From a phage: 64,000 nucleotides of DNA. A model generated the notes under the pieces. It made no database searches. It worked only from the letters and a program-made list of their open reading frames with translations, and had not been told where the DNA came from. Below, piece by piece: positions 2,607-61,346 of this stretch. Both the position numbers and the translations under genes were made by a program. The stretch's first letter is position 1, and each line of letters begins with the position of its first letter. The stretch is taken from the sequence record PV808484.1. One strand, written 5' to 3'.

Positions 2607-2930
2607 ATGAAATCTGTGATCGGTGTTTATTTGGATAACTCTGATTTTTTCTATCATCGCGCTCGTTTCCTTGATGCGATTGAAATGATAGAATCAGGCT
2701 TTAAAGAGTATCGCCTTGCACATGATGACCTGGAAGCATTACAGGGCAATAGTGTTTTTACATTGCAAGCTAAAGCACTATGCAAAAGCCGGATCGACAT
2801 TGCGAGCAAAAAGATAGAACGCGGCATGTCCTGGTTGCGCACCGCAGAAATCAACATGGGGCAATGGTACGGCGAAAACTTAGAAAATAAACATGCTTTT
2901 GTCAATGTAGAAAATATTGAAGATTATTGA
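2607..2930 (+). CDS. hypothetical protein
   Basis: start at internal ATG 2607 after promoter-like TTGACA at 2536. Confidence 0.45.
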   Translation: MKSVIGVYLDNSDFFYHRARFLDAIEMIESGFKEYRLAHDDLEALQGNSVFTLQAKALCKSRIDIASKKIERGMSWLRTAEINMGQWYGENLENKHAFVNVENIEDY

Positions 2931-2993
2931 TTGACAGCACACCTAACGGGTAGTATATTGTATCTCATAGAGCGGGGAAATGGTTTCCCCGCC
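2931..2993 (+). promoter_or_regulatory. promoter TTGACA-17-TATATT plus conserved leader hairpin GCGGGGA-AATGGTT-TCCCCGC (2973-2993)
   Basis: read directly; followed by ATCAATAAAGAGATAAG and ATG 3013. Confidence 0.55.
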
Positions 2994-3012
2994 ATCAATA
3001 AAGAGATAAGCT

Positions 3013-3297
3013 ATGAAGATCACAAAAGCACTTTCCAACTATGCAGCACGTCGCGGATTATGTTTAACCGTTGAAAATTTAGGGAAAGAAGATTTTTTGT
3101 GCTTTTGGGAGCTTGAGAATGATAATGAGTGGATCTTCTCTTATTCTATCTGCGAAGATCAAAACGGTTGTTTATTAACCTGGCGCGGTAATATCTATCT
3201 ACCGGAAGAAATCAAAGAAGAATTACCAGGCACGATCATGACTGAGAAACAGCTTAAGGAAGTGATCAATTTTGTAGGGCAAAACATTAAAAAATAA
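3013..3297 (+). CDS. hypothetical protein
   Basis: ORF track. Confidence 0.5.
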   Translation: MKITKALSNYAARRGLCLTVENLGKEDFLCFWELENDNEWIFSYSICEDQNGCLLTWRGNIYLPEEIKEELPGTIMTEKQLKEVINFVGQNIKK

Positions 3298-6443: not shown

Positions 6444-6459
6444 ATAACATTTCATACCA

Positions 6460-6485
6460 GGGCGCACAAAGCGCCCTTTCTTTTT
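6460..6485 (+). terminator. intrinsic terminator GGGCGC-ACAAA-GCGCCC plus T-run
   Basis: read directly. Confidence 0.6.
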
Positions 6486-6742
6486 ACCTAAATAAAGATG
6501 ATAGCTTTTACCTATCAAAAACATTCACCGAAAAAAGTGAATAGATCGCGGTATCGAGCTAATCAAGGAGCAGATGAACAACCATACCATGAAGATCATA
6601 AGGCGCTTACAACGTGTTTTAAACCGCTTATTTTTAATTTCTCCATGTAACTATCTGGCAAAAACAGCCTTTTTCGTGTCTTTCCTCTTAAGTGATAATC
6701 ATTCTTATTTATAGCTGATTATTTATGCAATAAACTGCATAA

Positions 6743-6762
6743 TGCAATAATGATAATCATTC
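6743..6762. repeat. Fur-box-like iteron (AATGCAATAATGATAATCATT)
   Basis: shares the ATGATAATCATT core with the copies at 7629 and 7817; a shorter copy lies at 6694-6704. Confidence 0.45.
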
Positions 6763-7176
6763 TTAACTTATGACCATCTAACCTATAAAATAATAAGTTA
6801 TCTAACTAAATTAAAGCTAATTATTTCACCTTTATTTATAACTTACTGTTACTATCTCATTGATAACCTTATATTAAACAACAATAACTAATATAAATCA
6901 TTACTAAGCTAAATATAATCTATCTAACCTTTAAAACTATAACTATAATCTATCGAATTGTTGCACAAAGTAACTATTAAATTGTTAGTAACATTACTAA
7001 ATAATTCATATCCTATCTATTTATGATCTAATCTTTACTTTCCTATCTATTACCTAAATAATCCTATCATACAGTTACCATTTCATGTAATAATCATTTC
7101 ATACAATAACTATAACAAGAAATATAATTCGCAAGCGTATCATTAGCAGCCTATGCCGGACACATAGGCGGCTAAT

Positions 7177-7312
7177 AATAACGCAACTACACACCCCACA
7201 TAATAACCATCACCGATAGTTATTATTTGTGCTTATGTAGCTTGCAACAATTGCAAGCGCAACAATATACATGGTATATTGTATCCCTTACATTGTTGCG
7301 GTGCGTTATTAT
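7177..7312. repeat. long-range inverted repeat (GCTAATAATAACGCAAC / GTTGCGGTGCGTTATTATTAGC) enclosing palindromes
   Basis: read directly; inner palindromes GCCTATG-N7-CATAGGC and GCTTGCAA-CAA-TTGCAAGC. Confidence 0.4.
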
Positions 7313-7628
7313 TAGCTAATGTTTGGAACATTGGCTATAATATAAGCTAAATAATAAGCTATTCAATAATAAACATAATGAATAATGACACTGATGATCA
7401 TAATGCGCCACCTTCCAGGGGGCGCTATGTGAACACAAAGAAATCTTTCTTGTCAAGAAAAATATTAACACTATTGCGCAAAATTATTTATGTCTGAATA
7501 GATGATTTTTCATACTATTGTTATTATTTATCGGCCCTAACTATTGCCTATTTGTTGAGCCTACTTTCTTAAAAGCGCAATAAATCAGAATTATCTTGAT
7601 TTTTAGGGTGTTTTATAGTATAGAAAAT

Positions 7629-7649
7629 ATGCAAATGATAATCATTATC
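7629..7649. repeat. Fur-box-like iteron GCAAATGATAATCATTATC
   Basis: about 17 of 19 positions match the enterobacterial Fur box consensus GATAATGATAATCATTATC. Confidence 0.45.
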
Positions 7650-7816
7650 AGCTATCTTCCACGGGTGGCACTATTTCACGCAGGATCATTTCATTTGGCA
7701 AGGTGTATATAGATGTTTAGACTTGCCAAGCCATTGATTTACTTAGAATTTATCTGTTTTGTTGTGAGTAGTACCTTTCTTGCTCAGAAAATAATCAAAA
7801 GTCTTATAAGTCATTG

Positions 7817-7845
7817 AATGATAATGCAAATGATAATTATTCTCA
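7817..7845. repeat. Fur-box-like iteron pair GAATGATAATGCAAATGATAATTATTCTC
   Basis: read directly. Confidence 0.45.
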
Positions 7846-8206
7846 TTGATATTTGAGGGGGACGGTCGGCAGAAATCGGGGGGCGCTGAAAATCGCGTTA
7901 AGCACCTCTCGCAAGCGAGCAGTATTTTGCGGCAAGTTATTGATATTATTGGCTTTACGCTTATGGAAAGGGGGTGTGTCGAAATAAATCGGGTATACCG
8001 GAAAATTTTTGTGGCATAGATATTTATTTGTCTATATTATGTACAAAGGGGTGTGTTAAAAATATTAGGTATATATAGAATAATTGATAGGGAAATCCTA
8101 TACTAATTCCTCCATTAATGATGTTTCTATGTTGCTGTTCTTGTAACAGATGAAAAGACGCTGTATGATGTGTAGCATGAAACGTAAATTTATAAAGGAG
8201 TCTGAT

Positions 8207-8575
8207 ATGTGTGTTCCTCTTAGCAGTCCTCTGCTGTTAGAATTTTACAAAGCATGGATGGAAGATCATTCCTCAATGCATCGTGAGAATGTTGGTTTGT
8301 GTAATTGCCTTATGGATTACCTGGCAACCACTATGTCAAAGAAAAAGCCTACGGAAGAAGATATAGAATATTTCAAGATGGTTCGTAGCAAAACGCTGAA
8401 AGAGATGAAACTGCAATTCACGTGTGCTGGGCTATCCTCCTTCCTACCCTTTAATTATGATCTTCTATGTTATGAAGATGAAGGTAAGACACATTCTTGC
8501 CATACCAACCCAAAGAGATTGCAGTGGGTGAAAGATCGTATTGCCGATTCATGTTTGGTGTTAGGGGGGTGGTAA
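8207..8575 (+). CDS. hypothetical protein, paralog family A member 1 (Cys/His-rich)
   Basis: AAGGAG RBS; shared motifs FYKAW, GLCxCL, FTCAGL, LPFN, CHTN, LQWVKDRI with three other genes. Confidence 0.5.
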   Translation: MCVPLSSPLLLEFYKAWMEDHSSMHRENVGLCNCLMDYLATTMSKKKPTEEDIEYFKMVRSKTLKEMKLQFTCAGLSSFLPFNYDLLCYEDEGKTHSCHTNPKRLQWVKDRIADSCLVLGGW

Positions 8576-8943
8576 TGAAAAGTAATATTCCGTTGAGTAG
8601 TGCAGCTTTAATACGATTCTATAAAGCATGGATTGCCAACCATCCGGCAATGAATCGCACAACGAGTGGCTTGTGTGGTTGTCTGGTAGATTATGTAGAT
8701 GATTTTGTTGGCGAGGTAACTAGAGAAGAAGATAAAAGATGGCGTGATCGTTTGTTGGATAGTTTGAAATACGAAATGAGGAAACAATTTACATGTGCAG
8801 GACTGGACTACAATCTTCCGTTCAATGTAGATTGCATGGATTACCTTTCAGAGTGTATAGACTTGGCGTGTCATACCAACACGTTACGTCTTCAATGGGT
8901 GAAAGACAGAATCGAAGATGCAAATAATGCTTGCATTGAATAG
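8575..8943 (+). CDS. hypothetical protein, paralog family A member 2
   Basis: ATGA overlap start; same motif set as 8207..8575. Confidence 0.5.
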   Translation: MKSNIPLSSAALIRFYKAWIANHPAMNRTTSGLCGCLVDYVDDFVGEVTREEDKRWRDRLLDSLKYEMRKQFTCAGLDYNLPFNVDCMDYLSECIDLACHTNTLRLQWVKDRIEDANNACIE

Positions 8944-9014
8944 AAATGTCTGTACACTGTGTTCCATAAGATATGCAATATCGCGCATAACAAAACTACT
9001 AATGAGAGGTGTAA

Positions 9015-9473
9015 ATGAAAACTGTATCTTTGTATCTTGCTAACACGGAGCGTGTACATAATCTCGTAAAAGAATGCGGTGTGAGTGTTCAATTTAATAC
9101 AGGAAAGCCTTCCGTGGTGACAGGCAGTGAGATGTGTGTTATTGATTTCCTCAATGAATATTTTCGTGGAAAACCTATTGCTCGTCACTTCATTCAAGAA
9201 ATGCGAGATGTTCTACAGGATTATGAATTCTACCCAGAAGTTTGTGAACGCTATGAAACGATTCTTAGTTCTGTAGAAGATCCAGATACTAGTGAAACAG
9301 GTGCTTCCCACTTACTGTGGATGTTGAATGAAATTCAGGATGGGTGTAATGGTATGTCTGAAACCAAACGCCATCGTTGGCTAGGCTATATTCAGGGTGT
9401 TATGGTTATGAAAAACCTTATTACAGTGAACGATGAACGTAACGCTACACGCCCCGTCTTTAATGGAGCATAA
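9015..9473 (+). CDS. hypothetical protein
   Basis: ORF track; GAGAGG RBS. Confidence 0.5.
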   Translation: MKTVSLYLANTERVHNLVKECGVSVQFNTGKPSVVTGSEMCVIDFLNEYFRGKPIARHFIQEMRDVLQDYEFYPEVCERYETILSSVEDPDTSETGASHLLWMLNEIQDGCNGMSETKRHRWLGYIQGVMVMKNLITVNDERNATRPVFNGA

Positions 9474-9474
9474 C

Positions 9475-9690
9475 ATGAAAAGCATTAAGGTGTGTATTGA
9501 AAATAATTGTGGCTATCTGGGGTTGACACACGTTGCTTTCCCTCTTATATTGGATGCCGATATAGCTTACAGCGGAGTTGCTTATGTGTCATTCAAGACA
9601 ATGAGCCAAGTACCTGGCTGGAATTGGGAAGTAGTTGATGTTGTTGAAGGAGAAGACTATGTTTTCCTTCCACACGAATATACTGTTTAA
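9475..9690 (+). CDS. hypothetical protein
   Basis: internal ATG 9475 overlapping the upstream stop. Confidence 0.4.
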   Translation: MKSIKVCIENNCGYLGLTHVAFPLILDADIAYSGVAYVSFKTMSQVPGWNWEVVDVVEGEDYVFLPHEYTV

Positions 9691-9705
9691 AGAGAGGAAA
9701 AGAAG

Positions 9706-9882
9706 ATGGATAAACAAACTACTGTGTACTTAGTAACAAAGAATACCCCAGGCTGGAGCCAATGCAGCACTGTCCCTTACAAGATTTGTGCAACATTAGA
9801 ACTAGCACAACGCGCAGAAGCAGAAGTGGATGCCATGCAATACAGCTATGGTGAGATCATTCCTTTTACTCTTGAACAATAA
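9706..9882 (+). CDS. hypothetical protein (58 aa)
   Basis: GAGAGGAAAAGAAG RBS region, ATG 9706. Confidence 0.4.
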   Translation: MDKQTTVYLVTKNTPGWSQCSTVPYKICATLELAQRAEAEVDAMQYSYGEIIPFTLEQ

Positions 9883-9893
9883 GGAGTTGTGTA

Positions 9894-10346
9894 ATGTTTG
9901 AAATTGGTAAAGTGTATCGTTTTAAGAACGCATCTTATATCCGTAAGTTTGCTAATGTGTCTGAGTGCAATAGCAGGATTGCTTCTTTCTTAGGTGATTC
10001 CTGTTTTCGTGTATTAGATGTGGATGCCTGGTATGGTGTCACTTCTTTGCAATCCTTAGCAGGAGAGCAAGAAATTATCACTCAAAATGAAGGAGACTTT
10101 GTTCTGTGTTACACATTGCTTGCAGAAAGTGAGTTTGAGTATTTTGTAGAAGTATTAGAAGAAGCACCAAAAAGTAAACACGAAGAGAAATACCTGCTTG
10201 TAGTGGATGGAGTTCCGATCATGGAAACCACCTCCCGTGAGGAAGTTGAAAAAGAGGCAAAACGTTACAAGCTGGATCGTACACAGAGTGTAGTTGAAGT
10301 CTATTCTCTTGTTGGTGTTGCAGATGTTCATGTGAACATTGTATAA
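9894..10346 (+). CDS. hypothetical protein
   Basis: ORF track; AAGGAG RBS. Confidence 0.5.
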   Translation: MFEIGKVYRFKNASYIRKFANVSECNSRIASFLGDSCFRVLDVDAWYGVTSLQSLAGEQEIITQNEGDFVLCYTLLAESEFEYFVEVLEEAPKSKHEEKYLLVVDGVPIMETTSREEVEKEAKRYKLDRTQSVVEVYSLVGVADVHVNIV

Positions 10347-10349
10347 TAT

Positions 10350-10562
10350 ATGTGTAATGATAGATACATTCTTCGTGTATCTGATAAGTCTCCTATGTTT
10401 GACTGGCGGGGCTGGTGGCTACTAGCTCCGATGCAAGGTCTGACAGACGTGGAAAAGGAGGCTTATGTGTATACAAAAGAAGAGATAGAAGATAGCCTTT
10501 ATTTGACAGATAACATTAAGAATGGTATCTTTGAGTGTAAATTGAAAGGAGAGGAAGAATGA
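10350..10562 (+). CDS. hypothetical protein
   Basis: ORF track. Confidence 0.4.
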   Translation: MCNDRYILRVSDKSPMFDWRGWWLLAPMQGLTDVEKEAYVYTKEEIEDSLYLTDNIKNGIFECKLKGEEE

Positions 10563-10858
10563 CTATTACAGAAAAACTGCGCTGTATTGCAAAGCAAAGT
10601 GGAGAAGGTTTATGGTTTCCTATTGAGGAAATTATTCAGGACTGTTATGATCAGGCTAAGACTGGCAAATACTCCAAAGCATTTAAACCGTCTGTTTTCG
10701 GTTTGGATGACTATCCAAAAAATGAACAAGCAAAGAAACGACAAGTTGATTTGATTGATCTGGCTATGGAAGCACTACGAGAGCATGGACTTAGTAAGGT
10801 GTATGCTTTAAACACCAAAGAGGGCTTTGTAGATTCCGTGATCGTAGACTGGTATTAA
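10559..10858 (+). CDS. hypothetical protein
   Basis: ORF track; ATGA overlap. Confidence 0.45.
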   Translation: MTITEKLRCIAKQSGEGLWFPIEEIIQDCYDQAKTGKYSKAFKPSVFGLDDYPKNEQAKKRQVDLIDLAMEALREHGLSKVYALNTKEGFVDSVIVDWY

Positions 10859-10867
10859 GGAGAAGTC

Positions 10868-11236
10868 ATGCAAGAGAATAGTAAAGTGTGTAGCATGAAA
10901 AGCAGCCCCTATTTGCTACAATTTTATGAGTGGTGGTTAGAACAAGAAGATACAAACTTTAGCAAAAAACATTATGGTCTTTGCACGTGTCTTGTAGACT
11001 TCTTGTACAATATTGCTTTGATAAAAGATGTTGAGAATGTAGCAAAGCTCCAATCCTCTGTACGAGAGGAAATGAAGGAACAATTTAAGAAAGCGGGTTT
11101 GAACCATTTACATCCGTTTAATACGGATTTCTCGCACTACTTTACGGAAACAGAGCTAGGCATTGCACACCTTAATAAAGAACGTGTACAATGGGTGATT
11201 GATCGTATTCGTGATATGGAGGAATACAATGGTTAA
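10868..11236 (+). CDS. hypothetical protein, paralog family A member 3
   Basis: AAGGAG RBS; motifs FYEWW, GLCTCL, HPFN, VQWVIDRI. Confidence 0.5.
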   Translation: MQENSKVCSMKSSPYLLQFYEWWLEQEDTNFSKKHYGLCTCLVDFLYNIALIKDVENVAKLQSSVREEMKEQFKKAGLNHLHPFNTDFSHYFTETELGIAHLNKERVQWVIDRIRDMEEYNG

Positions 11237-11438
11237 GTTTAAAACTTTCTGTGCAATCACTGTTTGTCTTATTCTTGCATACGTGTTATTCTCTGGTATC
11301 GTTCGTTTAGGTGAGTATATGGCAAGAGAAGCTCGTGAAAGTGCAGCTAAAAAAGAACAGTGTATTGTGTTCAAGCATCAAAGAGATGCTGAAAAGTTTC
11401 TTGAACAGGATTGTGGGCGCTATGTGAATTATAATTAG
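11229..11438 (+). CDS. small membrane protein, paralog of 16226..16450
   Basis: GGAGG RBS, ATG 11229; transmembrane helix then C.I.KH...AE.FL...C..Y..Y pattern shared with 16226..16450. Confidence 0.45.
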   Translation: MVKFKTFCAITVCLILAYVLFSGIVRLGEYMAREARESAAKKEQCIVFKHQRDAEKFLEQDCGRYVNYN

Positions 11439-11447
11439 GAGGGAAGT

Positions 11448-11696
11448 ATGTTAGATATTTTTACCTTTGATCGTGTTGGTACACCGATTACCGAAGAAGA
11501 ACGTACCAAAATTGAACAAGAATTGGATGCTTTACGTGCGTCTCTTACAGACACAGCCTCACTACAACGTGAAGCTGCACATCTCACAGAGATCACTGGT
11601 ATTCAGTGGAACACGGAGTGGGTTGTAATTACAATTGAAGCGGATATTTGGGGACATGAAGAGACGCTACGTACCGGAGTAGTAACGGTTTGGTGA
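11448..11696 (+). CDS. hypothetical protein
   Basis: ORF track; AGGAGGG RBS. Confidence 0.5.
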   Translation: MLDIFTFDRVGTPITEEERTKIEQELDALRASLTDTASLQREAAHLTEITGIQWNTEWVVITIEADIWGHEETLRTGVVTVW

Positions 11697-11742
11697 TAGA
11701 TGTTATTCTTTTGTGTTTCTTGATATATAAATAGGAGGGTTT

Positions 11743-11967
11743 ATGGTAAAACGTCTGGAATGGGATGCGTGTACTGCTCACGCTTGTCACTGTGATATTG
11801 TTGAAGATCCTAATGGAGAGATGGTGTATTATGAGGATTACGAAGCATTGCACAATGCTGTGATTGCTTTACTGGATGATATTAGCTCACGCTATCCAGG
11901 ACAACAATTCACGTGTCCACATATCCAACTATTAGCCGAACTTACGGAGTATCCAAGTGTTCCATAA
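11743..11967 (+). CDS. hypothetical protein, paralog of 17102..17374
   Basis: AGGAGGG RBS; shared CDIVxDPxG...DY motif. Confidence 0.45.
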   Translation: MVKRLEWDACTAHACHCDIVEDPNGEMVYYEDYEALHNAVIALLDDISSRYPGQQFTCPHIQLLAELTEYPSVP

Positions 11968-11968
11968 T

Positions 11969-12136
11969 ATGGGTGTCCCTGAACAACTGCTCTTTATTGT
12001 AGGATTAGTAGGCTTATTGGCGGCTGGCGCTAAAGCCGCTTCTCACACGCATCACATAATGTTAAGATTTCTGTTCCTACTCCCTTCTATCCTTGTATTA
12101 TTAGTCATATTGATTGATAACATTTTTCACAATTAA
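11969..12136 (+). CDS. small hydrophobic protein (55 aa)
   Basis: ATG overlapping upstream stop; two predicted transmembrane segments. Confidence 0.3.
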   Translation: MGVPEQLLFIVGLVGLLAAGAKAASHTHHIMLRFLFLLPSILVLLVILIDNIFHN

Positions 12137-12145
12137 GGAGAGGTT

Positions 12146-12730
12146 ATGAGTAAAATTATACCAAGCAGTTATGAATTATTGCAGTTTTATGTATATTACT
12201 TAGACTGGGTTAATAGATCGAATGTTAAAGACAATGCGATGTTTAGTAAAAACATCTGTTTAACAGAAAGTATCTTCCGTTATTGGCACACAGGCAGAAA
12301 GTGTACACACAGTGAAGCTATGCGCATTGTAGGTGAATACCTGGAGCAATTGCAAAAAGCAGAACTTCCTGTCCTTCACCCATTCAACGAATCTAAAGAA
12401 GAATTAGAACAAGAGTGTAGAGAAGGTAAGTGCCATTTAAATGAAAAACGTATCGAATGGGTGAGGCAACGTTTAGCCGATGCAGGGAATCCTCCTAGTG
12501 ACTCTGACTATACGTGGTATGATGTAGAGGGTTTAGTTCAAGGTTTTGAGGCTTGTGCTATAGGTAATACCAACTTTGCCAAAGTTTTATGCGAGGTTTA
12601 TGATCTGGCAGATAAAATCCGAAATCACGGATGGAAACAAGAGCATAAAGAATCATATGAACGCCTTGACAAGATTTTCAAACAGATCTATTCTAACCAC
12701 AAAGAGATGTTCCAAATGGAGGATGTGTAA
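12146..12730 (+). CDS. hypothetical protein, paralog family A member 4 (C-terminally extended)
   Basis: AAGGAGAGG RBS; motifs LQFY, HPFN, CHLN, IEWVRQRLAD. Confidence 0.5.
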   Translation: MSKIIPSSYELLQFYVYYLDWVNRSNVKDNAMFSKNICLTESIFRYWHTGRKCTHSEAMRIVGEYLEQLQKAELPVLHPFNESKEELEQECREGKCHLNEKRIEWVRQRLADAGNPPSDSDYTWYDVEGLVQGFEACAIGNTNFAKVLCEVYDLADKIRNHGWKQEHKESYERLDKIFKQIYSNHKEMFQMEDV

Positions 12731-13416
12731 TGAAAGAGATTATGTTTGAAGGGCATCGTTACGAAGTTCCAGACAATGCAAATTTCATGGCTCGTGATAT
12801 CACTGGAGATGTGTTCTGGTTTGAAGATGAACCTGTGTTTTCTTCGAACAAACACTGGTTTTCACAACAATCTTCTTCGGAAAATATGACTTTTGGCTAC
12901 GTAGAGCCTAAAGTGCGCTGCAAAGCAGCTTCTTCTTTGGTAAAAATTTCCCAAGATGATCAAGAAAATACTCCAGATGTTGTTAGTGCACTACTGAAGT
13001 ACATTGCAGAACTTGAGAAGAAAATTAAAGAAGCAGAAACTAAGGTGAAAGCACGATCAGCCATCATTGAAGCTATGTCTGAACGTATCTTAGAGCTAGA
13101 AGATTTGTGTGGAGAGGCTTATCAAGTGGTTGGTGCGCTGGCTTGTGAAGCACAAATGTTTGAAACTTCAGAACAAGTTTCACATATGTTAGATAATTTG
13201 AGTGAATGTAAAATGATTCATGATGATGTATTGCCATTTTGTTGCAATGTTAACAAAACAGAGCAAACACAAGATTCAGAAACAGTTTATGTTCCGCTAA
13301 TGTGTGTTCCAGATCATCTAAAAGGTGTATTCTCTTGTAAATGGTCGCTGTTGAGCGTTACTAATTGTGGTGAAAACTATTCTGCCAACATTGAATTGCT
13401 AAAACACGTTAAATAA
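12730..13416 (+). CDS. hypothetical protein with coiled-coil-like central segment
   Basis: ORF track; ATGA overlap. Confidence 0.5.
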   Translation: MKEIMFEGHRYEVPDNANFMARDITGDVFWFEDEPVFSSNKHWFSQQSSSENMTFGYVEPKVRCKAASSLVKISQDDQENTPDVVSALLKYIAELEKKIKEAETKVKARSAIIEAMSERILELEDLCGEAYQVVGALACEAQMFETSEQVSHMLDNLSECKMIHDDVLPFCCNVNKTEQTQDSETVYVPLMCVPDHLKGVFSCKWSLLSVTNCGENYSANIELLKHVK

Positions 13417-14042: not shown

Positions 14043-14209
14043 TGCAAACATTTTTTATCGACAAGTTCAATAAAAGTATGAACACGTGGATGGCAACATT
14101 CACTATGCAATTTGCGTCATTTAAAGAAGCTCAAGAATGGTGCGATCAACACAAGGATTTTGATTTTTACTATCAAATTAATACAAATCTTTCTCCAGAG
14201 GATAAATAA
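14042..14209 (+). CDS. hypothetical protein
   Basis: GGGAGG RBS, ATG 14042. Confidence 0.4.
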   Translation: MQTFFIDKFNKSMNTWMATFTMQFASFKEAQEWCDQHKDFDFYYQINTNLSPEDK

Positions 14210-14210
14210 T

Positions 14211-14555
14211 ATGTTGGCTGATATTGAAATCCTTATGTACCGCCAAGGTATGATCAAAATGTGGCTGGATTCTTTTAGCAACATATACTGCACAGTGCGA
14301 TCAGCAGAGGAGCGTAAAACGCTTATTTTATCTGCTATTGTTGATAAACAACGTTTCTTCAAAGAAGTTTTGCAAACAGGCTTCTCCGATGCAGGAGTAG
14401 AGATTGCAACTCTTAGTCTTGGGGTGCTGTCTTACTTGGAGTCCGTTGTTTTATATGTCTTCTCTTTAGAAGAACACTTGCAATTTGAAGCATTAAAACT
14501 TATCTTAGATGCTGCAATTGACATAGAACAAAATCGAATTGATTCTTTTGAATAA
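14211..14555 (+). CDS. hypothetical protein
   Basis: internal ATG of ORF 14112..14555 directly after the upstream stop. Confidence 0.45.
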   Translation: MLADIEILMYRQGMIKMWLDSFSNIYCTVRSAEERKTLILSAIVDKQRFFKEVLQTGFSDAGVEIATLSLGVLSYLESVVLYVFSLEEHLQFEALKLILDAAIDIEQNRIDSFE

Positions 14556-19751: not shown

Positions 19752-20039
19752 ATGGAACTAGTGCAAGAAGTTTATGAAAAACTGAAAGAAGAGAATCTTG
19801 ATTGGCCTGAACATGCTCTTATTGTCGTCAAAGATACTAATGGTGAAATAAAATTCTCAAGTGTAAGTGAAGATGATGTTGTTTTAAGTCCTACAGGGTA
19901 TTATATGAGAGGTGTTACGTGTCTATTCAACACCAAAGTGTATCCTGAAATTAAACTTAGTTACGGTGAACCTGATCATCCAGAAATCGTTACACGTAAT
20001 GAATATGAAAATTATTATTTTGCTCGTGAAAGCAAATAA
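19752..20039 (+). CDS. hypothetical protein
   Basis: ORF track; GAGGAGG RBS. Confidence 0.5.
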   Translation: MELVQEVYEKLKEENLDWPEHALIVVKDTNGEIKFSSVSEDDVVLSPTGYYMRGVTCLFNTKVYPEIKLSYGEPDHPEIVTRNEYENYYFARESK

Positions 20040-20047
20040 GGAAAACT

Positions 20048-20371
20048 ATGCAAAAAATAAACACTGGTTCTCGTCCTAAACAGAAGCAAACAAAAGCAAG
20101 GGTATCTTATGTTGACAACTCTTGTTATAATTTCAAAAATGTTAAAGAAGTTATCATTGATGAAAAAGAAGGTTTGATTCACATTTCATCTGAACGTTTG
20201 AAAGGTAGTGTTACTCTTCGTGAGAATGTATCTATACCTATGAAAGTTGTGGCTACACTCTGTGTTGATAAGCCAGATGTTGTTAACTACTATGTGTTCC
20301 GTGATAGTTGTATTTCATTACATAATAAGATTTTTAAATCTTCGCACGTTAAAACAAAACACATTGTATAA
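20048..20371 (+). CDS. hypothetical protein
   Basis: ORF track. Confidence 0.5.
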   Translation: MQKINTGSRPKQKQTKARVSYVDNSCYNFKNVKEVIIDEKEGLIHISSERLKGSVTLRENVSIPMKVVATLCVDKPDVVNYYVFRDSCISLHNKIFKSSHVKTKHIV

Positions 20372-20377
20372 CACATA

Positions 20378-20400
20378 AACCCGCTTCGGCGGGTTTTCTT
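20378..20400 (+). terminator. intrinsic terminator AAACCCGC-TTCG-GCGGGTTT plus T-run
   Basis: read directly. Confidence 0.6.
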
Positions 20401-20456
20401 GTATATATGCTCTTTGTGTGTTTTTATTTGTCTTAGCCTAAACAGTAGGAGGTCTT

Positions 20457-20678
20457 ATGTCTGTAGTTGTAGAAGGTAGTATTGGTTTCTTAGTAGATAA
20501 CCCTCACCCTTTCGTGGTTAAGGTTCATATTCAAGAAAAGGTAAGCAACAATACGTGGTTGTGCTTGTTAGATAGTAAGATACACTCTTATACAGAGGTT
20601 TATCTTCACACTTGGCAAATTGGTACGATAACAGCAGAGGATGAATTGATAATTGAATTATATGAACGAGATCTATAG
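20457..20678 (+). CDS. hypothetical protein
   Basis: ORF track; AGGAGG RBS. Confidence 0.5.
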   Translation: MSVVVEGSIGFLVDNPHPFVVKVHIQEKVSNNTWLCLLDSKIHSYTEVYLHTWQIGTITAEDELIIELYERDL

Positions 20679-20757
20679 ATGACTTTACTAGAGAGTATCG
20701 TAGTGTTAATCATCTTTATCATTGTTGTCATAGGATATTTTACAGAAGACTAAAATA

Positions 20758-20790
20758 AAGCCCCTAGAATCGCTTCTAGGGGCTTTTGTT
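20758..20790. terminator. bidirectional terminator hairpin at the convergent strand switch
   Basis: AGCCCCTAGAA-TCGC-TTCTAGGGGCT flanked by A-run and T-run. Confidence 0.55.
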
Positions 20791-20853
20791 TGCATTAGAT
20801 AGGGAAACGTATTACTAAGATAAAAAGTGCGTTAGAATGCGTTACAGGAGGTT

Positions 20854-21111
20854 TTAGGAATGCATAAAATCTTCTTCAGGGCAGGTTGAAAGATAAGAGA
20901 TGCACGTTGGGACAACAACAACATTGTCTTTAAGGTTTGCAACCAAGCCTTTTGTAATTCCAGCCACTGCCCCGTTAATATCTGCTTGACGGATACCAAA
21001 ACCTTGTTGTGCGGATAGATAACAAAATCCCTCACCTTTCTGTTGATTATTATTGAAGTAATAAACGTAGTGCATCATAAAATGGTCTTTAACGATTTGT
21101 TCTGTGGTCAT
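20854..21111 (-). CDS. hypothetical protein
   Basis: ORF track. Confidence 0.4.
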   Translation of the reverse strand: MTTEQIVKDHFMMHYVYYFNNNQQKGEGFCYLSAQQGFGIRQADINGAVAGITKGLVANLKDNVVVVPTCISYLSTCPEEDFMHS

Positions 21112-21126
21112 AATATTCTCCTATAA

Positions 21127-21147
21127 GAAAAGGGGCTTTCGCCCCCT
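21127..21147 (-). terminator. terminator hairpin GGGGCTTTCGCCCC (recurrent element)
   Basis: same hairpin at 32417 and 45499. Confidence 0.5.
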
Positions 21148-21155
21148 TGGTCAAG

Positions 21156-21968
21156 TTACTTAGTCAAATGATCTTCTATCATTTTTATGAAAGCAGGATT
21201 GCTAAAAGCATCTGCTGCCTTTTCTCTATAAACAAAGACTCCTCTATCTTCGTAAAGAAGAGTTTCTTCGTAATTAATTCCTGGGTTAACAACAATCATT
21301 TTTGTACCCATATTAAGTGCAGGGAATAATTCCCAATTAAAATTGATAACTTGGTTTGAACATCCTACTACAACAACCAAATCTTGCATGGTCAAAGTAT
21401 CAAACAAGTGAGCCATATCTGCATACAAAGGTGCAGCCTCACCAAAAAATACAACATTAGGCTTCACCCAGTTATAATCATCTATGTTTATACTATTGTA
21501 ACCAATGTCTACCAGTGTTTTGTAATCTCCAGGATGCATACGGTAAACTACTTCAGGAAGATACCCGTGCACGTGAATAACAGAATCCCTGTCCACACCT
21601 GCTCGCTCTAGTAGATCATCAACGTTTGTTGTCAAGTTTACTACTTGGTTAGGATATTCCTTAAACCACTTTGCTATTTGAATATGTGCAGCATTAGGTT
21701 GTACATCTTTAAGCTCAACACGTCTTTTGTTATAAAATTCGTGTGTTTTGGCATACAAGTCCATACCGTTCTCGTCTACACCACCGACCACTGGAAGATC
21801 TGGAGATGTTCTCACACGATAACCTGCTTGGAAAGCTCCAATATCGCAGACCTCTTCTAAGTCATATTCTTCCCATAAGGCACGACCACTATCTGTGTCT
21901 GTTCGGAACGTTCGAATCCCACTGTCTGCACTTAAACCTGCGCCACTAACAAAAATTACTCTTCGCAT
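21156..21968 (-). CDS. sirtuin-like (Sir2/CobB family) NAD-dependent protein
   Basis: GAGLSADSGIRTFR, NVDDLLERAG, HVHGYL and VVFFGE match sirtuin signature blocks in order. Confidence 0.75.
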   Translation of the reverse strand: MRRVIFVSGAGLSADSGIRTFRTDTDSGRALWEEYDLEEVCDIGAFQAGYRVRTSPDLPVVGGVDENGMDLYAKTHEFYNKRRVELKDVQPNAAHIQIAKWFKEYPNQVVNLTTNVDDLLERAGVDRDSVIHVHGYLPEVVYRMHPGDYKTLVDIGYNSINIDDYNWVKPNVVFFGEAAPLYADMAHLFDTLTMQDLVVVVGCSNQVINFNWELFPALNMGTKMIVVNPGINYEETLLYEDRGVFVYREKAADAFSNPAFIKMIEDHLTK

Positions 21969-21979
21969 TCAATATCCTC

Positions 21980-22525
21980 TTAGTAATCATCATCCCAAGA
22001 AGATGCGTCGTAACGCTCTTCCTCTTCGAAATCCCAATTAATTTCTACTCCAAAATCTAAAAACAATTTAACAATGTTTTCTGTAGAGTAGTATTTATCA
22101 TAAGCATTAGCTAGTTCCCAATACTTGTCACTCAATTTTTTATATTTAGGATCATTATAGTCATAATCTACTTTATAACCATAATCATACATCTCTTGTT
22201 CAGCTTTAAGCATAGCTTCTGGTGTAAGAAGATTAGGGAACGGACGATTTCTTTCTTTTAACTTAGAAGCAATCCAGTTTGCAACATTCGCCACTTCACC
22301 ATCTCGATTATCACCTAAACAACTTGCATAATCTCCATCTTCGTAAGTGCCTAAATCCCCACTAACTTCATGTACAATAGACGAATACGATCCACACGTT
22401 TCACAATCTGAAAAAGTGTCTACTGTTGTAATATCAATAGATAAAACTGGTAAAGCCATAGCTTCTTTCACACAAGCCTCCTCATATAATAACATGTCAT
22501 CAAAACCCATATATCCTCCAGACAA
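21980..22525 (-). CDS. hypothetical acidic protein
   Basis: ORF track. Confidence 0.45.
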   Translation of the reverse strand: MSGGYMGFDDMLLYEEACVKEAMALPVLSIDITTVDTFSDCETCGSYSSIVHEVSGDLGTYEDGDYASCLGDNRDGEVANVANWIASKLKERNRPFPNLLTPEAMLKAEQEMYDYGYKVDYDYNDPKYKKLSDKYWELANAYDKYYSTENIVKLFLDFGVEINWDFEEEERYDASSWDDDY

Positions 22526-55887: not shown

Positions 55888-56256
55888 CTAATTAATGTCA
55901 GCACTATGATTGTTGAGAGTATAGGATACTCCATCGCCCAAGTCAACATGAATCTCAACTCCTAACTGTCTTTCTAATGGTAAACGTTTTGAGAATTGAT
56001 AATTACAAAGTTTACAGTCTAAGTCAAGCAATTCATGTTTGCTTAAACCTGCAACGATAACTTTGCTTCCCACTGTCCACTCAATACCTTCAAAGTTATC
56101 TCTTCTTTTCAAAATGTCAAGTAAGAAGATGATTTGTTGCCATTCCGTAGACAAGTCTTCTTCATAGAAGGCAGAACAAAAAGTTTTATCATCGTAGAAA
56201 GCATACATTATGCCTCCATCTATTGTTTCACTTCTAACGTAACGTGTGACCCTCAT
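55888..56256 (-). CDS. hypothetical protein
   Basis: ORF track. Confidence 0.45.
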   Translation of the reverse strand: MRVTRYVRSETIDGGIMYAFYDDKTFCSAFYEEDLSTEWQQIIFLLDILKRRDNFEGIEWTVGSKVIVAGLSKHELLDLDCKLCNYQFSKRLPLERQLGVEIHVDLGDGVSYTLNNHSADIN

Positions 56257-56387
56257 TATTCCCTCCTGTATGGCTCTGTAACGAGCTAATAGCCTCTAAG
56301 ATATGCAATCACCTTACCTCACAGTAAAACTCGTTACAATCGTTTTTAGGAGGTTTAGGTTGTACTTAAAAATAATCTAAAAAGGTG

Positions 56388-56416
56388 TTGACAAACGCAA
56401 AAAAGTATGCTACCCT
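56388..56416 (+). promoter_or_regulatory. TTGACA-type promoter in the divergent AT-rich region
   Basis: TTGACA 56388-56393 with TACCCT about 17 bp downstream. Confidence 0.35.
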
Positions 56417-56677
56417 AACCCCCGAAAAACGCCGAGCGCAGCGAGGGGGTGTTATCTAATCTTGTGATACATGATCTAACAGACAACTGAGTAGTCTACA
56501 TATAGCACTATGTTATGTCTATAATACTAACATACATACTCTATACTAACAATAGATTCTTTATTAATTTTATTATTAATTAAATAATAAATTAAATAAT
56601 AAATATCTATTGACTTTAGATCTATCTGGAGGTAGAGTAGAGAACATAAAGTCCTAACTCAACTAAGGAGATAAAGA

Positions 56678-57571
56678 ATGAAAGTTAGTATTCTACATGG
56701 TGTTGACTGTTATGTTACTGATGTAGACGTTAAAGTGTTTACATTCTCTGGTGGAGAACAACATGTTCAATTAGATACGAACCTGTCAGGTTTCAATCAT
56801 GCTACAGACAGAATCTTACTCACATTAGAAGTAAGATCTGCTAAAGACTTGATGACTTTGGTTATGACTAAGAATGCATTGGACAATATGCTATATCATA
56901 AACCATATTGTGTTGATTTACTCATGTTGTATGTACCGTATGCACGACAAGACAGAGTGTGTGAGCCTGGGGAAGCATTTGGAGTTAAAGCATTTGCTTC
57001 TATAATTAACTCATTAAATTTCTCACGTGTTATCGTTGCTGATCCACACAGTGATGTTACTCCAGCAGTGTTTGACAGACTCTGTGTAATACCTCAAGAA
57101 GAGATTGCTTACGAAACTTTAAAATGGAAGTTACGTATGGAGAATTTTGCTCTTGTTAGTCCTGATGGTGGTGCTCTTAAGAAAATATTTAAATTATCTA
57201 AGAAAATGTCTTTAGATGTGTTCTGTGCAGAGAAGGTTAGAGATACCGCAACAGGTGCTATTGTTCGTACAGACATTTCTGTACAGGATTTCAATAAGCG
57301 TAACCTGATGATCGTAGACGATATCTGTGATGGTGGTAGAACTTTTATCGAATTGGCTAAAGTGCTACGTGCTCGTAACGCAGGTAAGATTGAGCTATAT
57401 GTTACACACGGTATCTTTTCTAAAGGTCTTAAAGAGTTAAGTGAGCACTTTGACTGCATTCATTCTCTTAATATATGGGAAGATAACATCCAAGAAGATT
57501 CCGGTGTTCTTGTTAAGAATCAGTCAGATTTGCAACAACAAATTGTATCTCCATACGTGTGGAATTTTTAA
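56678..57571 (+). CDS. prs: ribose-phosphate pyrophosphokinase (Prs)-like enzyme; candidate ADP-ribose pyrophosphokinase
   Basis: YVPYARQDR, VIVADPHSD and MIVDDICDGGRTF phosphoribosyltransferase-type blocks aligned to Prs. Confidence 0.8.
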   Translation: MKVSILHGVDCYVTDVDVKVFTFSGGEQHVQLDTNLSGFNHATDRILLTLEVRSAKDLMTLVMTKNALDNMLYHKPYCVDLLMLYVPYARQDRVCEPGEAFGVKAFASIINSLNFSRVIVADPHSDVTPAVFDRLCVIPQEEIAYETLKWKLRMENFALVSPDGGALKKIFKLSKKMSLDVFCAEKVRDTATGAIVRTDISVQDFNKRNLMIVDDICDGGRTFIELAKVLRARNAGKIELYVTHGIFSKGLKELSEHFDCIHSLNIWEDNIQEDSGVLVKNQSDLQQQIVSPYVWNF

Positions 57572-57581
57572 ATAATAAGTG

Positions 57582-57625
57582 TTGACAATAGGGAGTATGC
57601 TTAGTAAGATACTCCCACACTAACA
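57582..57625 (+). promoter_or_regulatory. TTGACA promoter plus leader hairpin GGGAGTAT-N-ATACTCCC
   Basis: read directly upstream of ATG 57643. Confidence 0.45.
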
Positions 57626-57642
57626 AACAAGGAGACATAACT

Positions 57643-60270: not shown

Positions 60271-60356
60271 GCAAGTGTGGTGGAATTGGTGATACACATT
60301 GTGCTTAAAACGCAACGCTTAAATGATTGAGGGTTCGAATCCCTCCACTTGCACCA
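60271..60356 (+). tRNA. tRNA-Leu (anticodon TAA), class II
   Basis: acceptor GCAAGTG/CACTTGC, T-arm GAGGG-TTCGAAT-CCCTC, anticodon loop CTTAAAA, long variable arm, encoded CCA. Confidence 0.7.
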
Positions 60357-60358
60357 AC

Positions 60359-60464
60359 GCCTAGTAGGGTATTTGGTAATTCCGAGGCCATCAAAGCCTG
60401 AAAAATATGTTAGACCGCTTTGTCTAACTAAATACGAAATATGGTTCGATTCCATAACTAGGCT
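60359..60464 (+). tRNA. atypical 106 nt tRNA-like element
   Basis: perfect 7 bp acceptor GCCTAGT/ACTAGGC and canonical T-arm TATGG-TTCGATT-CCATA, but about 30 nt too long; candidate anticodon loop CATCAAA. Confidence 0.3.
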
Positions 60465-60497
60465 TCAATTTAAATAGTAATTTTAGTAAAAAATATC

Positions 60498-60526
60498 TTG
60501 ACATTTACTTAGTTTTTTGTTATAGT
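60498..60526 (+). promoter_or_regulatory. promoter TTGACA-17-TATAGT driving downstream tRNAs
   Basis: read directly; ideal 17 bp spacing. Confidence 0.55.
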
Positions 60527-60537
60527 CGTTATGAAAA

Positions 60538-60619
60538 CGGGGTGTATCTCACCTGACTTCTAATCAGGCGTTAACCGAGTAATTGGAGTATGCAGGTTCG
60601 AATCCTGTCACCCCGGCCA
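60538..60619 (+). tRNA. tRNA-like element, possible tRNA-Arg (anticodon loop CTTCTAA) with irregular D region
   Basis: perfect acceptor CGGGGTG/CACCCCG, T-arm GCAGG-TTCGAAT-CCTGT, CCA; perfect stem-loop CCTGA-CTTCTAA-TCAGG; cloverleaf not resolved. Confidence 0.4.
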
Positions 60620-60682
60620 AAAAGTTTTAAAAACTACTTGACAAGCAAGATAGTTTTATGTTAGATTTAAAGTATGATAACT

Positions 60683-60772
60683 GGAAGGTAGGGCGCAGCG
60701 GTGCGCAACCAGGTTTGAACCCTGGCCCATTGTAGCGATACGGTGATGGTTCGACTCCATTATCTTCCTCCA
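60683..60772 (+). tRNA. tRNA-Ser (anticodon TGA), class II
   Basis: acceptor GGAAGGT/ATCTTCC, D-arm GCGC-AGCGGT-GCGC, anticodon arm CCAGG-TTTGAAC-CCTGG, 19 nt variable arm, T-arm GATGG-TTCGACT-CCATT, CCA. Confidence 0.8.
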
Positions 60773-60790
60773 AATTCAATGAGTGATTTT

Positions 60791-60943
60791 ATGAATTATA
60801 AAACTATTGGACAGGTTGTTACCGGAGTTAAGATTGTAAATAATAAAGTTGTTTATGAGTATTCTAATCTTCAACAATCTGAAGATGGTAAGAATATTCG
60901 TATGGTAAAAGCAGAACAAAAAGATTCCGGTTGTTTTGAATAA
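60791..60943 (+). CDS. hypothetical protein (50 aa)
   Basis: internal ATG of ORF 60743..60943; the upstream part overlaps tRNA-Ser. Confidence 0.35.
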   Translation: MNYKTIGQVVTGVKIVNNKVVYEYSNLQQSEDGKNIRMVKAEQKDSGCFE

Positions 60944-60951
60944 TTAAGAAC

Positions 60952-61247: not shown

Positions 61248-61252
61248 AACAC

Positions 61253-61339: not shown

Positions 61340-61346
61340 AATTAAA

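What the first reader, a model, noticed from the sequence alone, without database searches (positions are those of the whole stretch)
8207..12730. Four-member paralogous family of Cys/His-rich early proteins
Genes at 8207-8575, 8575-8943, 10868-11236 and 12146-12730 share an ordered motif set: LxxFYxxW, GLCxCL, FTCAGL, LPFN/HPFN, CH(T/L)N and (L/V)(Q/E)WV(K/I/R)(D/Q)RI. Outside these anchors they have diverged strongly, and one copy is C-terminally extended to 194 aa. The conserved Cys and His residues suggest a small metal-binding domain. Diversified tandem paralogues among early genes are typical of host-take-over or anti-defence repertoires.
Basis: seen in the sequence. Interest (0 to 1): 0.55.

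Follow-up and report, generated by a model that had tools for sequence, protein, structure and literature searches.

The report
Four-copy uncharacterised phage helical-domain family
Four genes near the physical start of a phi92-like E. coli phage genome are true paralogues of a large, phage-restricted, all-helical protein domain that has no Pfam entry, no solved-structure relative and no known function, and it does not look like a zinc-binding domain.

Summary
ORFs 8207-8575 (A), 8575-8943 (B), 10868-11236 (C) and 12146-12730 (D) are real paralogous genes (BLASTP 4e-34 to 4e-10). All four hit phrog_2510, and there are exactly four copies in the window. All have Shine-Dalgarno sites and are under purifying selection (dN/dS 0.0-0.33).

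The metal-binding idea is not supported:
- Only one Cys (in GLC) is invariant family-wide.
- The His is 80% conserved, the Cys before it 56%, and the second Cys of CxC 27%.
- The two variable Cys do not co-occur.
- D has its Cys out of register.

By homology to Salmonella phage UAB_1, A starts about 650 nt from the physical left genome end. Relatives sit in early or terminal regions of N4-like and other phages. This fits an early host-takeover or anti-defence role, but nothing tests it.

My best guess is a conserved-pocket binding module that acts in several copies. The function remains unknown.

The parts
8207..8575 (+). Paralogue A, 122 aa. It is the first gene after the terminal-repeat homologue. 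It carries the full motif set (LLEFYKAW, GLCNCL, FTCAGL, LPFN, CHTN, LQWVKDRI).
   Evidence: ORF. AAGGAG 7 nt before the ATG. phrog_2510 at 5.6e-22. dN/dS 0.17-0.33 against 6 orthologues. Its TAA stop overlaps the ATG of B (TAATG).
8575..8943 (+). Paralogue B, 122 aa, overlapping A by 1 nt and probably translationally coupled to it. This is the copy shared at 84-95% nucleotide identity with Phapecoctavirus phages.
   Evidence: ORF. phrog_2510 at 7.7e-24. A-B 47% identity, E 4e-34. Window 8574-8954 is the main or only stretch of the 4.7-kb query matched in most listed Phapecoctavirus records. dN/dS 0.08-0.26. The same arrangement occurs in phAPEC8 genes 0018 and 0019.
10868..11236 (+). Paralogue C, 122 aa (Phi92_gp006). 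It lacks the Cys before the His (AHLN) and the Cys of FTCAGL.
   Evidence: ORF. phrog_2510 at 9.4e-26. AlphaFold model with pLDDT 89 and six helices at 14-25, 31-35, 38-53, 58-75, 88-97 and 104-121. dN/dS 0.0-0.22.
12146..12490 (+). Paralogue D, N-terminal domain (aa 1-115; D is Phi92_gp010). It is the most divergent copy: GLC becomes ICL, EM..QF becomes EY..QL, and AGL becomes AEL.
   Evidence: Family HMM at 1.5e-28 over residues 5-114. Same helix order as C. phrog_2510 at 5.1e-18 and phrog_27059 at 1.5e-138.
12491..12730 (+). C-terminal extension of D (aa 116-194). Predicted as three helices at low confidence. It is unrelated to any other ORF in the window. Its stop overlaps the start of the next gene (12730-13416).
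   Evidence: pLDDT about 50-68 for this part. phmmer of the extension against all window ORFs finds only itself. Weak phrog_24126 match at 3e-4. TAATG overlap.
7558..7900 (.). Context: homologue of the direct terminal repeat annotated in Salmonella phage UAB_1. This places the physical left genome end about 650 nt upstream of A.
   Evidence: UAB_1 bases 1-979 align to window 7558-8535 at 96.9%. The UAB_1 right-end stretch (record 145905-147769, 93.9% identity) ends at window 7900. The repeats are annotated at 1-343 and 147427-147769.

Best explanation
Shown: A, B, C and D are four functional paralogues of one phage-restricted, roughly 105-residue, six-helix domain with no described relative. 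They lie in the long rightward array of small genes that begins at the physical left end of a phi92-like genome. A and B are the first two genes of that array.

Inferred mechanism: the domain is a cytoplasmic binding module, made at the very start of infection. It engages one component that is conserved across Proteobacteria, either a host protein or a small nucleotide-like ligand. The binding site would be the invariant constellation formed by the Cys at the N-terminus of helix 3, the Pro-Phe(-Asn) loop, the Glu and Gln of helix 4, and the Asn and Arg at the start of helix 6. The variable helix 3-4 connector, helix 5 and the C-terminal tails would differ between paralogues and set partner or context specificity.

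The domain probably works in several copies at once, as homo- or hetero-oligomers. A and B, which overlap by one base, are the likeliest pair. The biological role would be host take-over or counter-defence.

The Cys and His residues are not a structural zinc site of the family.
For: - Paralogy and common fold.
- Real, constrained genes: Shine-Dalgarno sites; dN/dS 0.0-0.33 against up to 9 orthologues each.
- Large phage family: 775 clusters at E<=1e-3 and 159 at E<=1e-10. Among 50,697 phage records, 141-227 match depending on the query. Only 1 of 72,556 plasmids matches. Two pattern scans of GTDB genomes found nothing.
- Strong site conservation at about 20% mean column identity: C39, P83, F84 and R106 are invariant. 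L16, F19, Y20, G37, L38, E68, Q72, F73, L78, N103, W109 and V110 are at least 90% conserved (C numbering).
- Multivalency: 2x and 3x tandem-domain proteins arose independently. In P0058 and P0057 the two domains are each other's best or second-best hit. The domain is embedded behind an N-terminal module that matches phrog_60/660/3323 and that I recognise as ead/Ea22-like. It is fused to DUF551 in phage Av-05. A-like and B genes are adjacent and overlapping in both genera.
- Early or leading position: A starts about 650 nt from the left end inferred from UAB_1. The N4-like Axy11 copy at 2833-3168 lies upstream of the phage RNA polymerase genes. By my own tally, 17 of 25 listed records under 80 kb have the gene within 10% of a record end.
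- Cytoplasmic and mildly acidic: pI 5.2-6.4 for the four, family median 5.2.
Against: - No experiment, no characterised homologue and no informative domain fusion. Every fused partner is itself of unknown function.
- I could not read model coordinates, so the spatial clustering of the conserved residues is an assumption. Several of them (Ser-Ser, Gly, Asn) sit at helix starts and could be purely structural caps. Glu68 and Arg106 could be a structural salt bridge.
- An invariant Cys is unusual for a pure binding module and fits an enzyme equally well.
- Orthologue dN/dS shows no gene-wide arms-race signal.
- D and the Av-05 homologue lack the Cys in register. If they are functional, the Cys is not universally required.
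- Expression timing and the direction of DNA entry are not measured for this phage group.
- Record starts are conventions, and many of the counted phages are related.
Confidence: 0.4

Rival explanations
1. Thiol-dependent enzyme. The invariant Cys at the N-terminus of helix 3 would be a nucleophile or redox centre, assisted by the invariant Arg, the Glu and Gln, and usually the His. The proteins would covalently modify or cleave a host molecule early in infection. D and the GLK variants would be inactive pseudo-enzymes.
For: Cys is 100% conserved in 118 single-domain members, together with invariant Arg and Pro-Phe and at least 90% conserved Glu, Gln and Asn, at only about 20% mean column identity. 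The Cys sits at a helix N-terminus in the model. From general protein chemistry, that position lowers a thiol's pKa. This degree of polar conservation is more typical of catalytic sites than of inhibitor surfaces.
Confidence: 0.2
2. One reading: a small structural Cys/His metal-binding (zinc) domain, at least in the CxC...CH subgroup that includes A and B.
For: A and B carry all four candidate ligands (C32/C34 with C98/H99 in A) and 7 Cys each. The pattern CCCH occurs in 23 of 167 domains. From general knowledge, some protein families have both zinc-binding and zinc-free forms.
Against: Family-wide conservation is one Cys at 95-100%, the His at 80%, the Cys before it at 56% and the second CxC Cys at 27%. 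The two variable Cys are not associated (26/19/68/54, Fisher p 0.86). C has CCAH and D has its Cys shifted. Close B orthologues lose individual Cys. The same fold is predicted with high confidence for C, which lacks one ligand. There is no hit to any zinc-finger or zinc-ribbon Pfam model at E<=1.
Confidence: 0.1
3. Regulators of the phage's own programme or DNA-binding proteins: helical, HTH-like modules that bind phage or host DNA or RNA polymerase to switch early transcription.
Against: All these matches are partial (38-84 of 122 residues aligned) and in the noise range for small helical proteins. The proteins are acidic (pI 5.2-6.4), which is unfavourable for DNA binding. No HTH family is hit in Pfam or NCBIfam. 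The Crl hit is below any threshold and applies to one paralogue only.
Confidence: 0.1
4. Not a real feature: chance motif resemblance among non-coding or unrelated ORFs.
For: None beyond the small size of the ORFs.
Against: E-values down to 4e-34, a shared PHROG family, 775 homologous clusters, purifying selection and confident shared fold predictions.
Confidence: 0.01

Closest known systems
PHROG families phrog_2510, phrog_6418, phrog_27059 and phrog_2176 (all 'unknown function')
   Same: All four window proteins match phrog_2510. D is a full-length member of phrog_27059 (1.5e-138). Distant relatives match phrog_6418 and phrog_2176 over the same domain.
   Different: These are automatic clusters with no name, structure or function, so membership says nothing about mechanism. 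The domain has no Pfam, NCBIfam or PDB counterpart.
Mosaic 'ead/Ea22-like' proteins of lambdoid and P22-like phages (lambda Ea22, exo-xis region)
   Same: Relatives of the domain are embedded in 250-400 aa proteins. These have an N-terminal module that matches phrog_60/660/3323, which I recognise from memory as the ead/Ea22-like type, and a WNACRAAMLNGGKS-type tail. One such protein lies upstream of the integrase remnant in the P22-like phage GE_vB_TR. [quoted passage not shown]
   Different: The window proteins are stand-alone domains with no coiled coil or tail. The solved C-terminal domain of lambda Ea22 is a mixed alpha-beta fold (PMC10834534), not this all-helical domain. No PDB sequence or fold match was found. 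NCBIfam gave no ead/Ea22 hit for the mosaics.
Leading-end early genes of terminally redundant phages (T7 gene 0.3/Ocr, T5 pre-early genes, N4 early region, SPO1 host-takeover module); own knowledge
   Same: Small genes placed next to a physical genome end, with A about 650 nt from the inferred left end. A homologue lies in the left-end region of an N4-like phage, upstream of its RNA polymerase genes.
   Different: No sequence or fold similarity to any solved protein, so none to those of these proteins that have solved structures. The order of DNA entry and the timing of expression have not been measured for phi92-like phages. No function has been demonstrated.
DUF551 (PF04448) phage proteins
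   Same: In phage Av-05 gp048 the domain is fused behind a DUF551 domain (4.2e-9).
   Different: The window proteins have no DUF551, and DUF551 is itself of unknown function.

Membership tests
phrog_2510 / phrog_27059 (uncharacterised phage protein family) | Significant match to the family profile over the whole domain | tested here: met
   A 5.6e-22, B 7.7e-24, C 9.4e-26 and D 5.1e-18 to phrog_2510. D matches phrog_27059 at 1.5e-138.
Structural zinc-binding (Cys/His) domain | Three or four Cys/His ligands conserved across the family | tested here: not met
   One Cys at 95-100%, the His at 80%, the second Cys at 56% and the third at 27%. Paralogue C shows CCAH, and D has its Cys out of register.
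Structural zinc-binding (Cys/His) domain | Ligand positions gained and lost together | tested here: not met
   Cys at position 41 against Cys at position 100: counts 26/19/68/54, Fisher p 0.86. The sequences are related, so this test is approximate.
Structural zinc-binding (Cys/His) domain | Ligands within bonding distance in the structure; metal present in the protein | not testable with these tools
   The tool returns no model coordinates. Metal content needs purified protein.
Structural zinc-binding (Cys/His) domain | Match to a known zinc-finger or zinc-ribbon profile | tested here: not met
   No such Pfam or NCBIfam hit at E<=1. None among the 118 members scanned.
lambda Ea22 / ead family | Short N-terminal domain, then a coiled coil, then a C-terminal domain with a mixed alpha-beta fold (PMC10834534) | tested here: not met
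   A to D are single all-helical domains of 122-194 aa. There is no PDB sequence match, and lambda Ea22's solved domain should be in that library. Only distant relatives are embedded in such mosaics.
Solved phage anti-defence or host-takeover proteins (those deposited in the PDB) | Fold similarity to a solved member | tested here: not met
Known anti-phage defence proteins (PADLOC) | Profile match | tested here: not met
   Only a DzbA hit at E 0.015 (12.6 bits) on the tail of D.
Papain-like or other Cys-His hydrolases | Invariant catalytic Cys and His on an alpha+beta fold | tested here: not met
   The Cys is invariant but the His is only 80% conserved. The fold is all-helical. No such structure appears among the listed matches.
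Early (leading-end) gene class | Transcribed in the first minutes of infection | not testable with these tools
   Only position could be examined: first genes after the terminal-repeat homologue, with sigma-70-like sites upstream. No transcriptome was found in the literature search.

The most novel reading that the evidence does not exclude
The domain is a new fold carrying an invariant reactive cysteine. On this reading it is a previously unrecognised class of phage effector: either a thiol enzyme or a covalent trap or sponge for a host immune signal or sensor. It would be deployed from the first DNA to enter the cell and multiplied into cassettes of diversified copies (four to five genes, or two to three fused domains) so that one phage can neutralise several variants of a defence.
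Probability: 0.12. Interest if true: 0.75.

Novelty: new variant of a known kind. Interest (0 to 1): 0.4.

Why it matters
If it is functional as proposed, this is a sizeable phage-restricted domain family. It has at least 775 clusters at 50% identity and occurs in phages of enterobacteria, Rhizobium, Burkholderia, Achromobacter and others. No domain database or structure covers it. It has a sharply defined invariant site (Cys, Pro-Phe, Arg, Glu, Gln, Asn) and sits at the leading end of several unrelated phage types.

That makes it a well-defined target for a new Pfam entry, a structure determination, and anti-defence or host-takeover screens. The phi92-like BASEL phages that carry it, such as Bas61 EmilieFrey, grow on E. 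coli K-12.

It also corrects a tempting mis-annotation: the Cys and His residues are not a zinc finger. On present evidence, though, it is one more family of hypothetical early phage proteins.

Tried and rejected
- Pfam, NCBIfam and PADLOC scans of the four proteins found only noise: ATG11, DREPP, Crl and DzbA at E 0.015-0.17.
- A Pfam scan of 118 family members gave one chance TetR_C hit.
- PDB sequence-profile searches with 29- and 118-sequence alignments found nothing meaningful.
- BFVD returned only uncharacterised phage proteins.
- Domain fusions were examined for functional clues. All partners are unknown (phrog_60/660/3323, DUF551).
- Names in the 15-billion-protein collection are all 'hypothetical'.
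- Literature searches by accession number, PHROG id, phage group, and Ea22/DUF551 with anti-defence terms found no paper on these proteins.
- Scans of GTDB genomes failed three times: the alignment was too divergent, and two pattern scans gave no confirmed hit.
- The plasmid search found one hit only, so there is no link to plasmid leading regions.
- The neighbouring genes were scanned with PHROGs and all are unknown. The 'goF' label in phage Eryne belongs to the unrelated ORF 9894-10346 and rests on a weak hit of 1.2e-5.
- Gene-wide positive selection was not seen.
- I first read the wider identity spread of B orthologues as faster evolution. I rejected that when one search showed that the 90-95% band consists of Phapecoctavirus orthologues.
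- Rfam found no RNA family in window positions 1-22000.


Full report
**What the window is.** The 5-kb stretch around the finding is 96-98% identical to many Justusliebigvirus (phi92-like, Stephanstirmvirinae) E. coli myophages. The best match is Bas61 EmilieFrey at 98.0% over 100% of the query. In those records the four ORFs are separate genes annotated 'hypothetical protein' (bas61_0144, 0145, 0152, 0157). C corresponds to Phi92_gp006 and D to Phi92_gp010. They lie in an array of about 75 small rightward genes, almost all unannotated.

**Check of the observation.** The ORFs are at the stated coordinates. Each ATG is preceded by a good Shine-Dalgarno site. The stop of A overlaps the start of B (TAATG), and the stop of D overlaps the start of the next gene in the same way.

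Pairwise BLASTP gives:
- A-B: 47% identity, E 4e-34.
- A-C: 39%, E 7e-25.
- B-C: 37%, E 2e-20.
- C-D: 31% over 114 residues, E 4e-10.
- A-D and B-D: only the C-terminal half, E about 2e-8.

All four match phrog_2510. A profile of the four, and a profile of 118 family members, each recover exactly these four among 628 six-frame ORFs, with nothing else below E 0.7. So the paralogy is real and there are four copies.

The motif list is complete in A and B, partial in C (FKKAGL, AHLN) and more eroded in D (NICL for GLCxCL, EY..QL, AEL, IEWVRQRL).

Against up to nine orthologues each, dN/dS is 0.17-0.33 (A), 0.08-0.26 (B), 0.0-0.22 (C) and 0.07-0.21 (D). The neighbouring genes give 0.0-0.53. All four are therefore constrained coding genes, with no gene-wide sign of positive selection.

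**Fold.** AlphaFold2 with a 29-sequence alignment gives C a confident all-helical model: pLDDT 89, pTM 0.83, helices at 14-25, 31-35, 38-53, 58-75, 88-97 and 104-121. D shows the same order of six helices in residues 9-113, followed by three further helices at low confidence (pLDDT about 50-68).

**The wider family.** A full HMMER scan of 1.84 billion representatives found 775 clusters at E<=1e-3 and 159 at E<=1e-10. Most are single domains of 100-125 aa.

Named members are all hypothetical proteins of phages. Depending on the query, tblastn finds the domain in 141-227 of 50,697 phage records. These are mainly Stephanstirmvirinae, with up to five copies per genome. They also include Vequintavirinae, Drexlerviridae, N4-like Schitoviridae, 45-61-kb phages, jumbo phages, and phages of Rhizobium, Achromobacter, Alcaligenes and Caulobacter. 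BFVD adds phages of Burkholderia, Delftia and Pectobacterium.

Only one of 72,556 plasmids has the domain. Two pattern scans of GTDB species genomes confirmed nothing.

The domain is therefore an undescribed, phage-restricted family whose predicted fold has no solved counterpart.

**Is it a Cys/His metal site?** I extracted 167 domains from the 150 best representatives and aligned them to the profile. Conservation, in C numbering, is:

| Position | Conservation |
|---|---|
| Cys of GLC (C39) | 95% (100% in 118 single-domain members) |
| His (H101) | 80% |
| Cys before the His (C100) | 56% |
| Second Cys of CxC (C41) | 27% (Asn in 53%) |

The commonest pattern at these four positions is C-N-C-H (39 domains). 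C-C-C-H occurs in 23 domains, mostly close relatives of A and B. Presence of Cys41 and Cys100 is not associated (26/19/68/54, Fisher p 0.86).

Within the close B orthologues, individual Cys are replaced, for example FEHAGL and AMSHQN in P0011. C lacks Cys100. D has its only nearby Cys one position out of register. The Av-05 homologue has GLK.

A four-ligand zinc site is therefore not a property of the family. It remains possible only as a subgroup feature of A and B. I could not test ligand geometry because model coordinates are not returned.

**What is conserved instead.** At about 20% mean column identity, C39, P83, F84 and R106 are invariant. L16, F19, Y20, G37, L38, E68, Q72, F73, L78, N103, W109 and V110 are at least 90% conserved.

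Nine of these are hydrophobic and probably form the core. The polar set is Cys, Glu, Gln, Asn and Arg, usually with His. It lies at the start of helix 3, on one stripe of helix 4, and at the start of helix 6, next to the Pro-Phe-Asn loop. This could be a ligand or catalytic site. It could also be a buried polar network with helix caps. The data do not decide between these.

**Architecture clues.**
- Proteins with two tandem copies of the domain, and one with three, occur. In P0058 and P0057 the two copies are each other's best or second-best hit, so duplication happened repeatedly.
- In 250-400 aa proteins of P22-like and lambdoid phages, the domain sits behind an N-terminal module that matches phrog_60/660/3323. 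I recognise that module from memory as the ead/Ea22-like type. A WNACRAAMLNGGKS-type tail follows the domain. One such gene lies upstream of the integrase remnant in the Lederbergvirus GE_vB_TR.
- In phage Av-05 the domain follows a DUF551 domain.
- In phAPEC8, as here, an A-like gene overlaps a B orthologue right after a terminator and a roughly 1.5-kb ORF-free gap.
- Copy number changes by recombination between the paralogues. UAB_1 gp001 is an in-frame A/B hybrid whose junction lies in the conserved QWVKDRI coding stretch.
- A metagenomic variant, P0019, joins the D domain at 'DAG' to the C-terminus of window ORF 14112-14555.

Repeated tandem duplication, fusion to what I take to be an oligomerising N-terminal module, and overlapping adjacent genes all suggest, by inference, that the domain works in several copies at once.

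**Position.** Salmonella phage UAB_1, also a Justusliebigvirus, is deposited as a linear genome with annotated direct terminal repeats at 1-343 and 147427-147769. Its gp001 is a family member. UAB_1 bases 1-979 align to window 7558-8535 at 96.9%, and its right end aligns up to window 7900. The terminal-repeat homologue is therefore window 7558-7900, and A starts about 650 nt from the inferred physical left end.

A paper on this subfamily states that Stephanstirmvirinae genomes end in direct terminal repeats (PMC12695924). In the N4-like phage Axy11 the homologue is ORF 2833-3168. The record annotates only its 3' part, 3010-3168. It lies in the left-end region upstream of the two phage RNA polymerase genes. 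From my own knowledge of N4, that is the early region.

By my own count of the listed records under 80 kb, 17 of 25 carry the gene within 10% of a record end. Record starts are conventions and many of these phages are related, so this is only suggestive. 'Early' is well supported by position but has not been measured.

**Mechanism.** I commit, at about 0.4 confidence, to the following. The domain is a non-zinc binding module made at the onset of infection. It engages one component conserved across Proteobacteria through the invariant pocket. Its variable connector, helix 5 and tails differentiate the paralogues. It acts as an oligomer, with A and B the likeliest pair.

The main rival is a thiol enzyme (about 0.2). 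It explains the invariant Cys better, but explains the copy number and the variable His worse. A subgroup zinc site (about 0.1) and a DNA- or RNA-polymerase-binding regulator (about 0.1) are not excluded.

An anti-defence role is suggested only by position, phage restriction and copy-number flux. There is no sequence, fold or selection evidence for it.

**Verdict.** The metal-binding interpretation is not supported, and the function is unknown. This is a good candidate for a new domain entry and for experiments. As it stands, it is one of many families of hypothetical early phage proteins, so its interest is moderate.

Noticed in passing
window 6691-6703, 6749-6761, 7634-7646, 7829-7841 (19-mer matches at 6746-6764 and 7631-7649): There are four copies of the palindrome AATGATAATCATT (two exact, two with one mismatch) in the ORF-poor stretch upstream of paralogue A. 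From my own knowledge this is the core of the E. coli Fur-box consensus GATAATGATAATCATTATC. They are the only four sites in the 64-kb window, against a chance expectation of 0.39 matches counted over both strands. The full 19-mer matches with 2 and 3 mismatches (chance 0.07). Two copies lie inside the terminal-repeat homologue. They could be iron/Fur-responsive early promoters or an operator of a phage regulator.
   Followed up: partly
window 7558-7900: This is the homologue of the 343-bp direct terminal repeat annotated in Salmonella phage UAB_1. The physical genome ends therefore fall inside the window, in the 1.7-kb ORF-poor stretch 6480-8200 that follows a terminator-like hairpin at 6459-6477.
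   Followed up: yes
L014/L017 (UAB_1 651-1016) against window 8207-8535 and 8893-8943: UAB_1 has a single in-frame A/B hybrid gene where this phage has A and B. The junction lies in the conserved QWVKDRI coding stretch, as expected from unequal recombination between the tandem paralogues. Other relatives (Eryne, ESCO8, pEC-M2929) instead have a 156-nt ORF inserted between a 119-aa A and B.
   Followed up: partly
window 12146-12490 and 14112-14555; protein P0019: The metagenomic protein P0019 (166 aa) joins the N-terminal domain of D, at the residues 'DAG', to the C-terminus of the product of ORF 14112-14555. This implies a roughly 1.8-kb deletion that removes D's tail and the genes in between.
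   Followed up: no
window 8574-8954 (gene B): Gene B is the main or only stretch of the 4.7-kb query that megablast aligns to most listed Phapecoctavirus genomes, at 84-95% nucleotide identity. This points either to unusual conservation or to recent exchange between the two genera.
   Followed up: partly
L005 (Achromobacter phage Axy11) 2833-3168: The family member is an ORF at 2833-3168 (111 codons from a TTG; the domain begins at an internal Met), but the record annotates only its 3' part (gp10, 3010-3168). This looks like a start-site mis-call.
   Followed up: partly
window 60271-62876: A cluster of 14 tRNA genes lies on the + strand: Leu x2, Ser x2, Lys, Tyr, Asn, Thr, Gly, Gln, Pro, Phe, Met and Ile.
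   Followed up: no
window 9894-10346: This 150-aa ORF is labelled 'goF mRNA metabolism modulator' in phage Eryne. The label rests on weak PHROG hits (1.2e-5 and 4e-4). Its best match is phrog_3710, of unknown function, and it is unrelated to the four paralogues.
   Followed up: partly
GenBank MG065639, MG065645, MG065656, MG065689: Records named 'Campylobacter phage' A150, A145, C3 and A110a are 96.7% identical to this E. coli phage region over 94% of the query. The host label looks doubtful.
   Followed up: no
window 20000-22000 and 56000-58000: GC skew flips from positive to negative near 20-22 kb and back near 56-58 kb. The first flip matches the switch in gene orientation seen in the EmilieFrey annotation: rightward small genes, then a leftward block that includes sirtuin-family and Dcm-like methyltransferase genes.
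   Followed up: no
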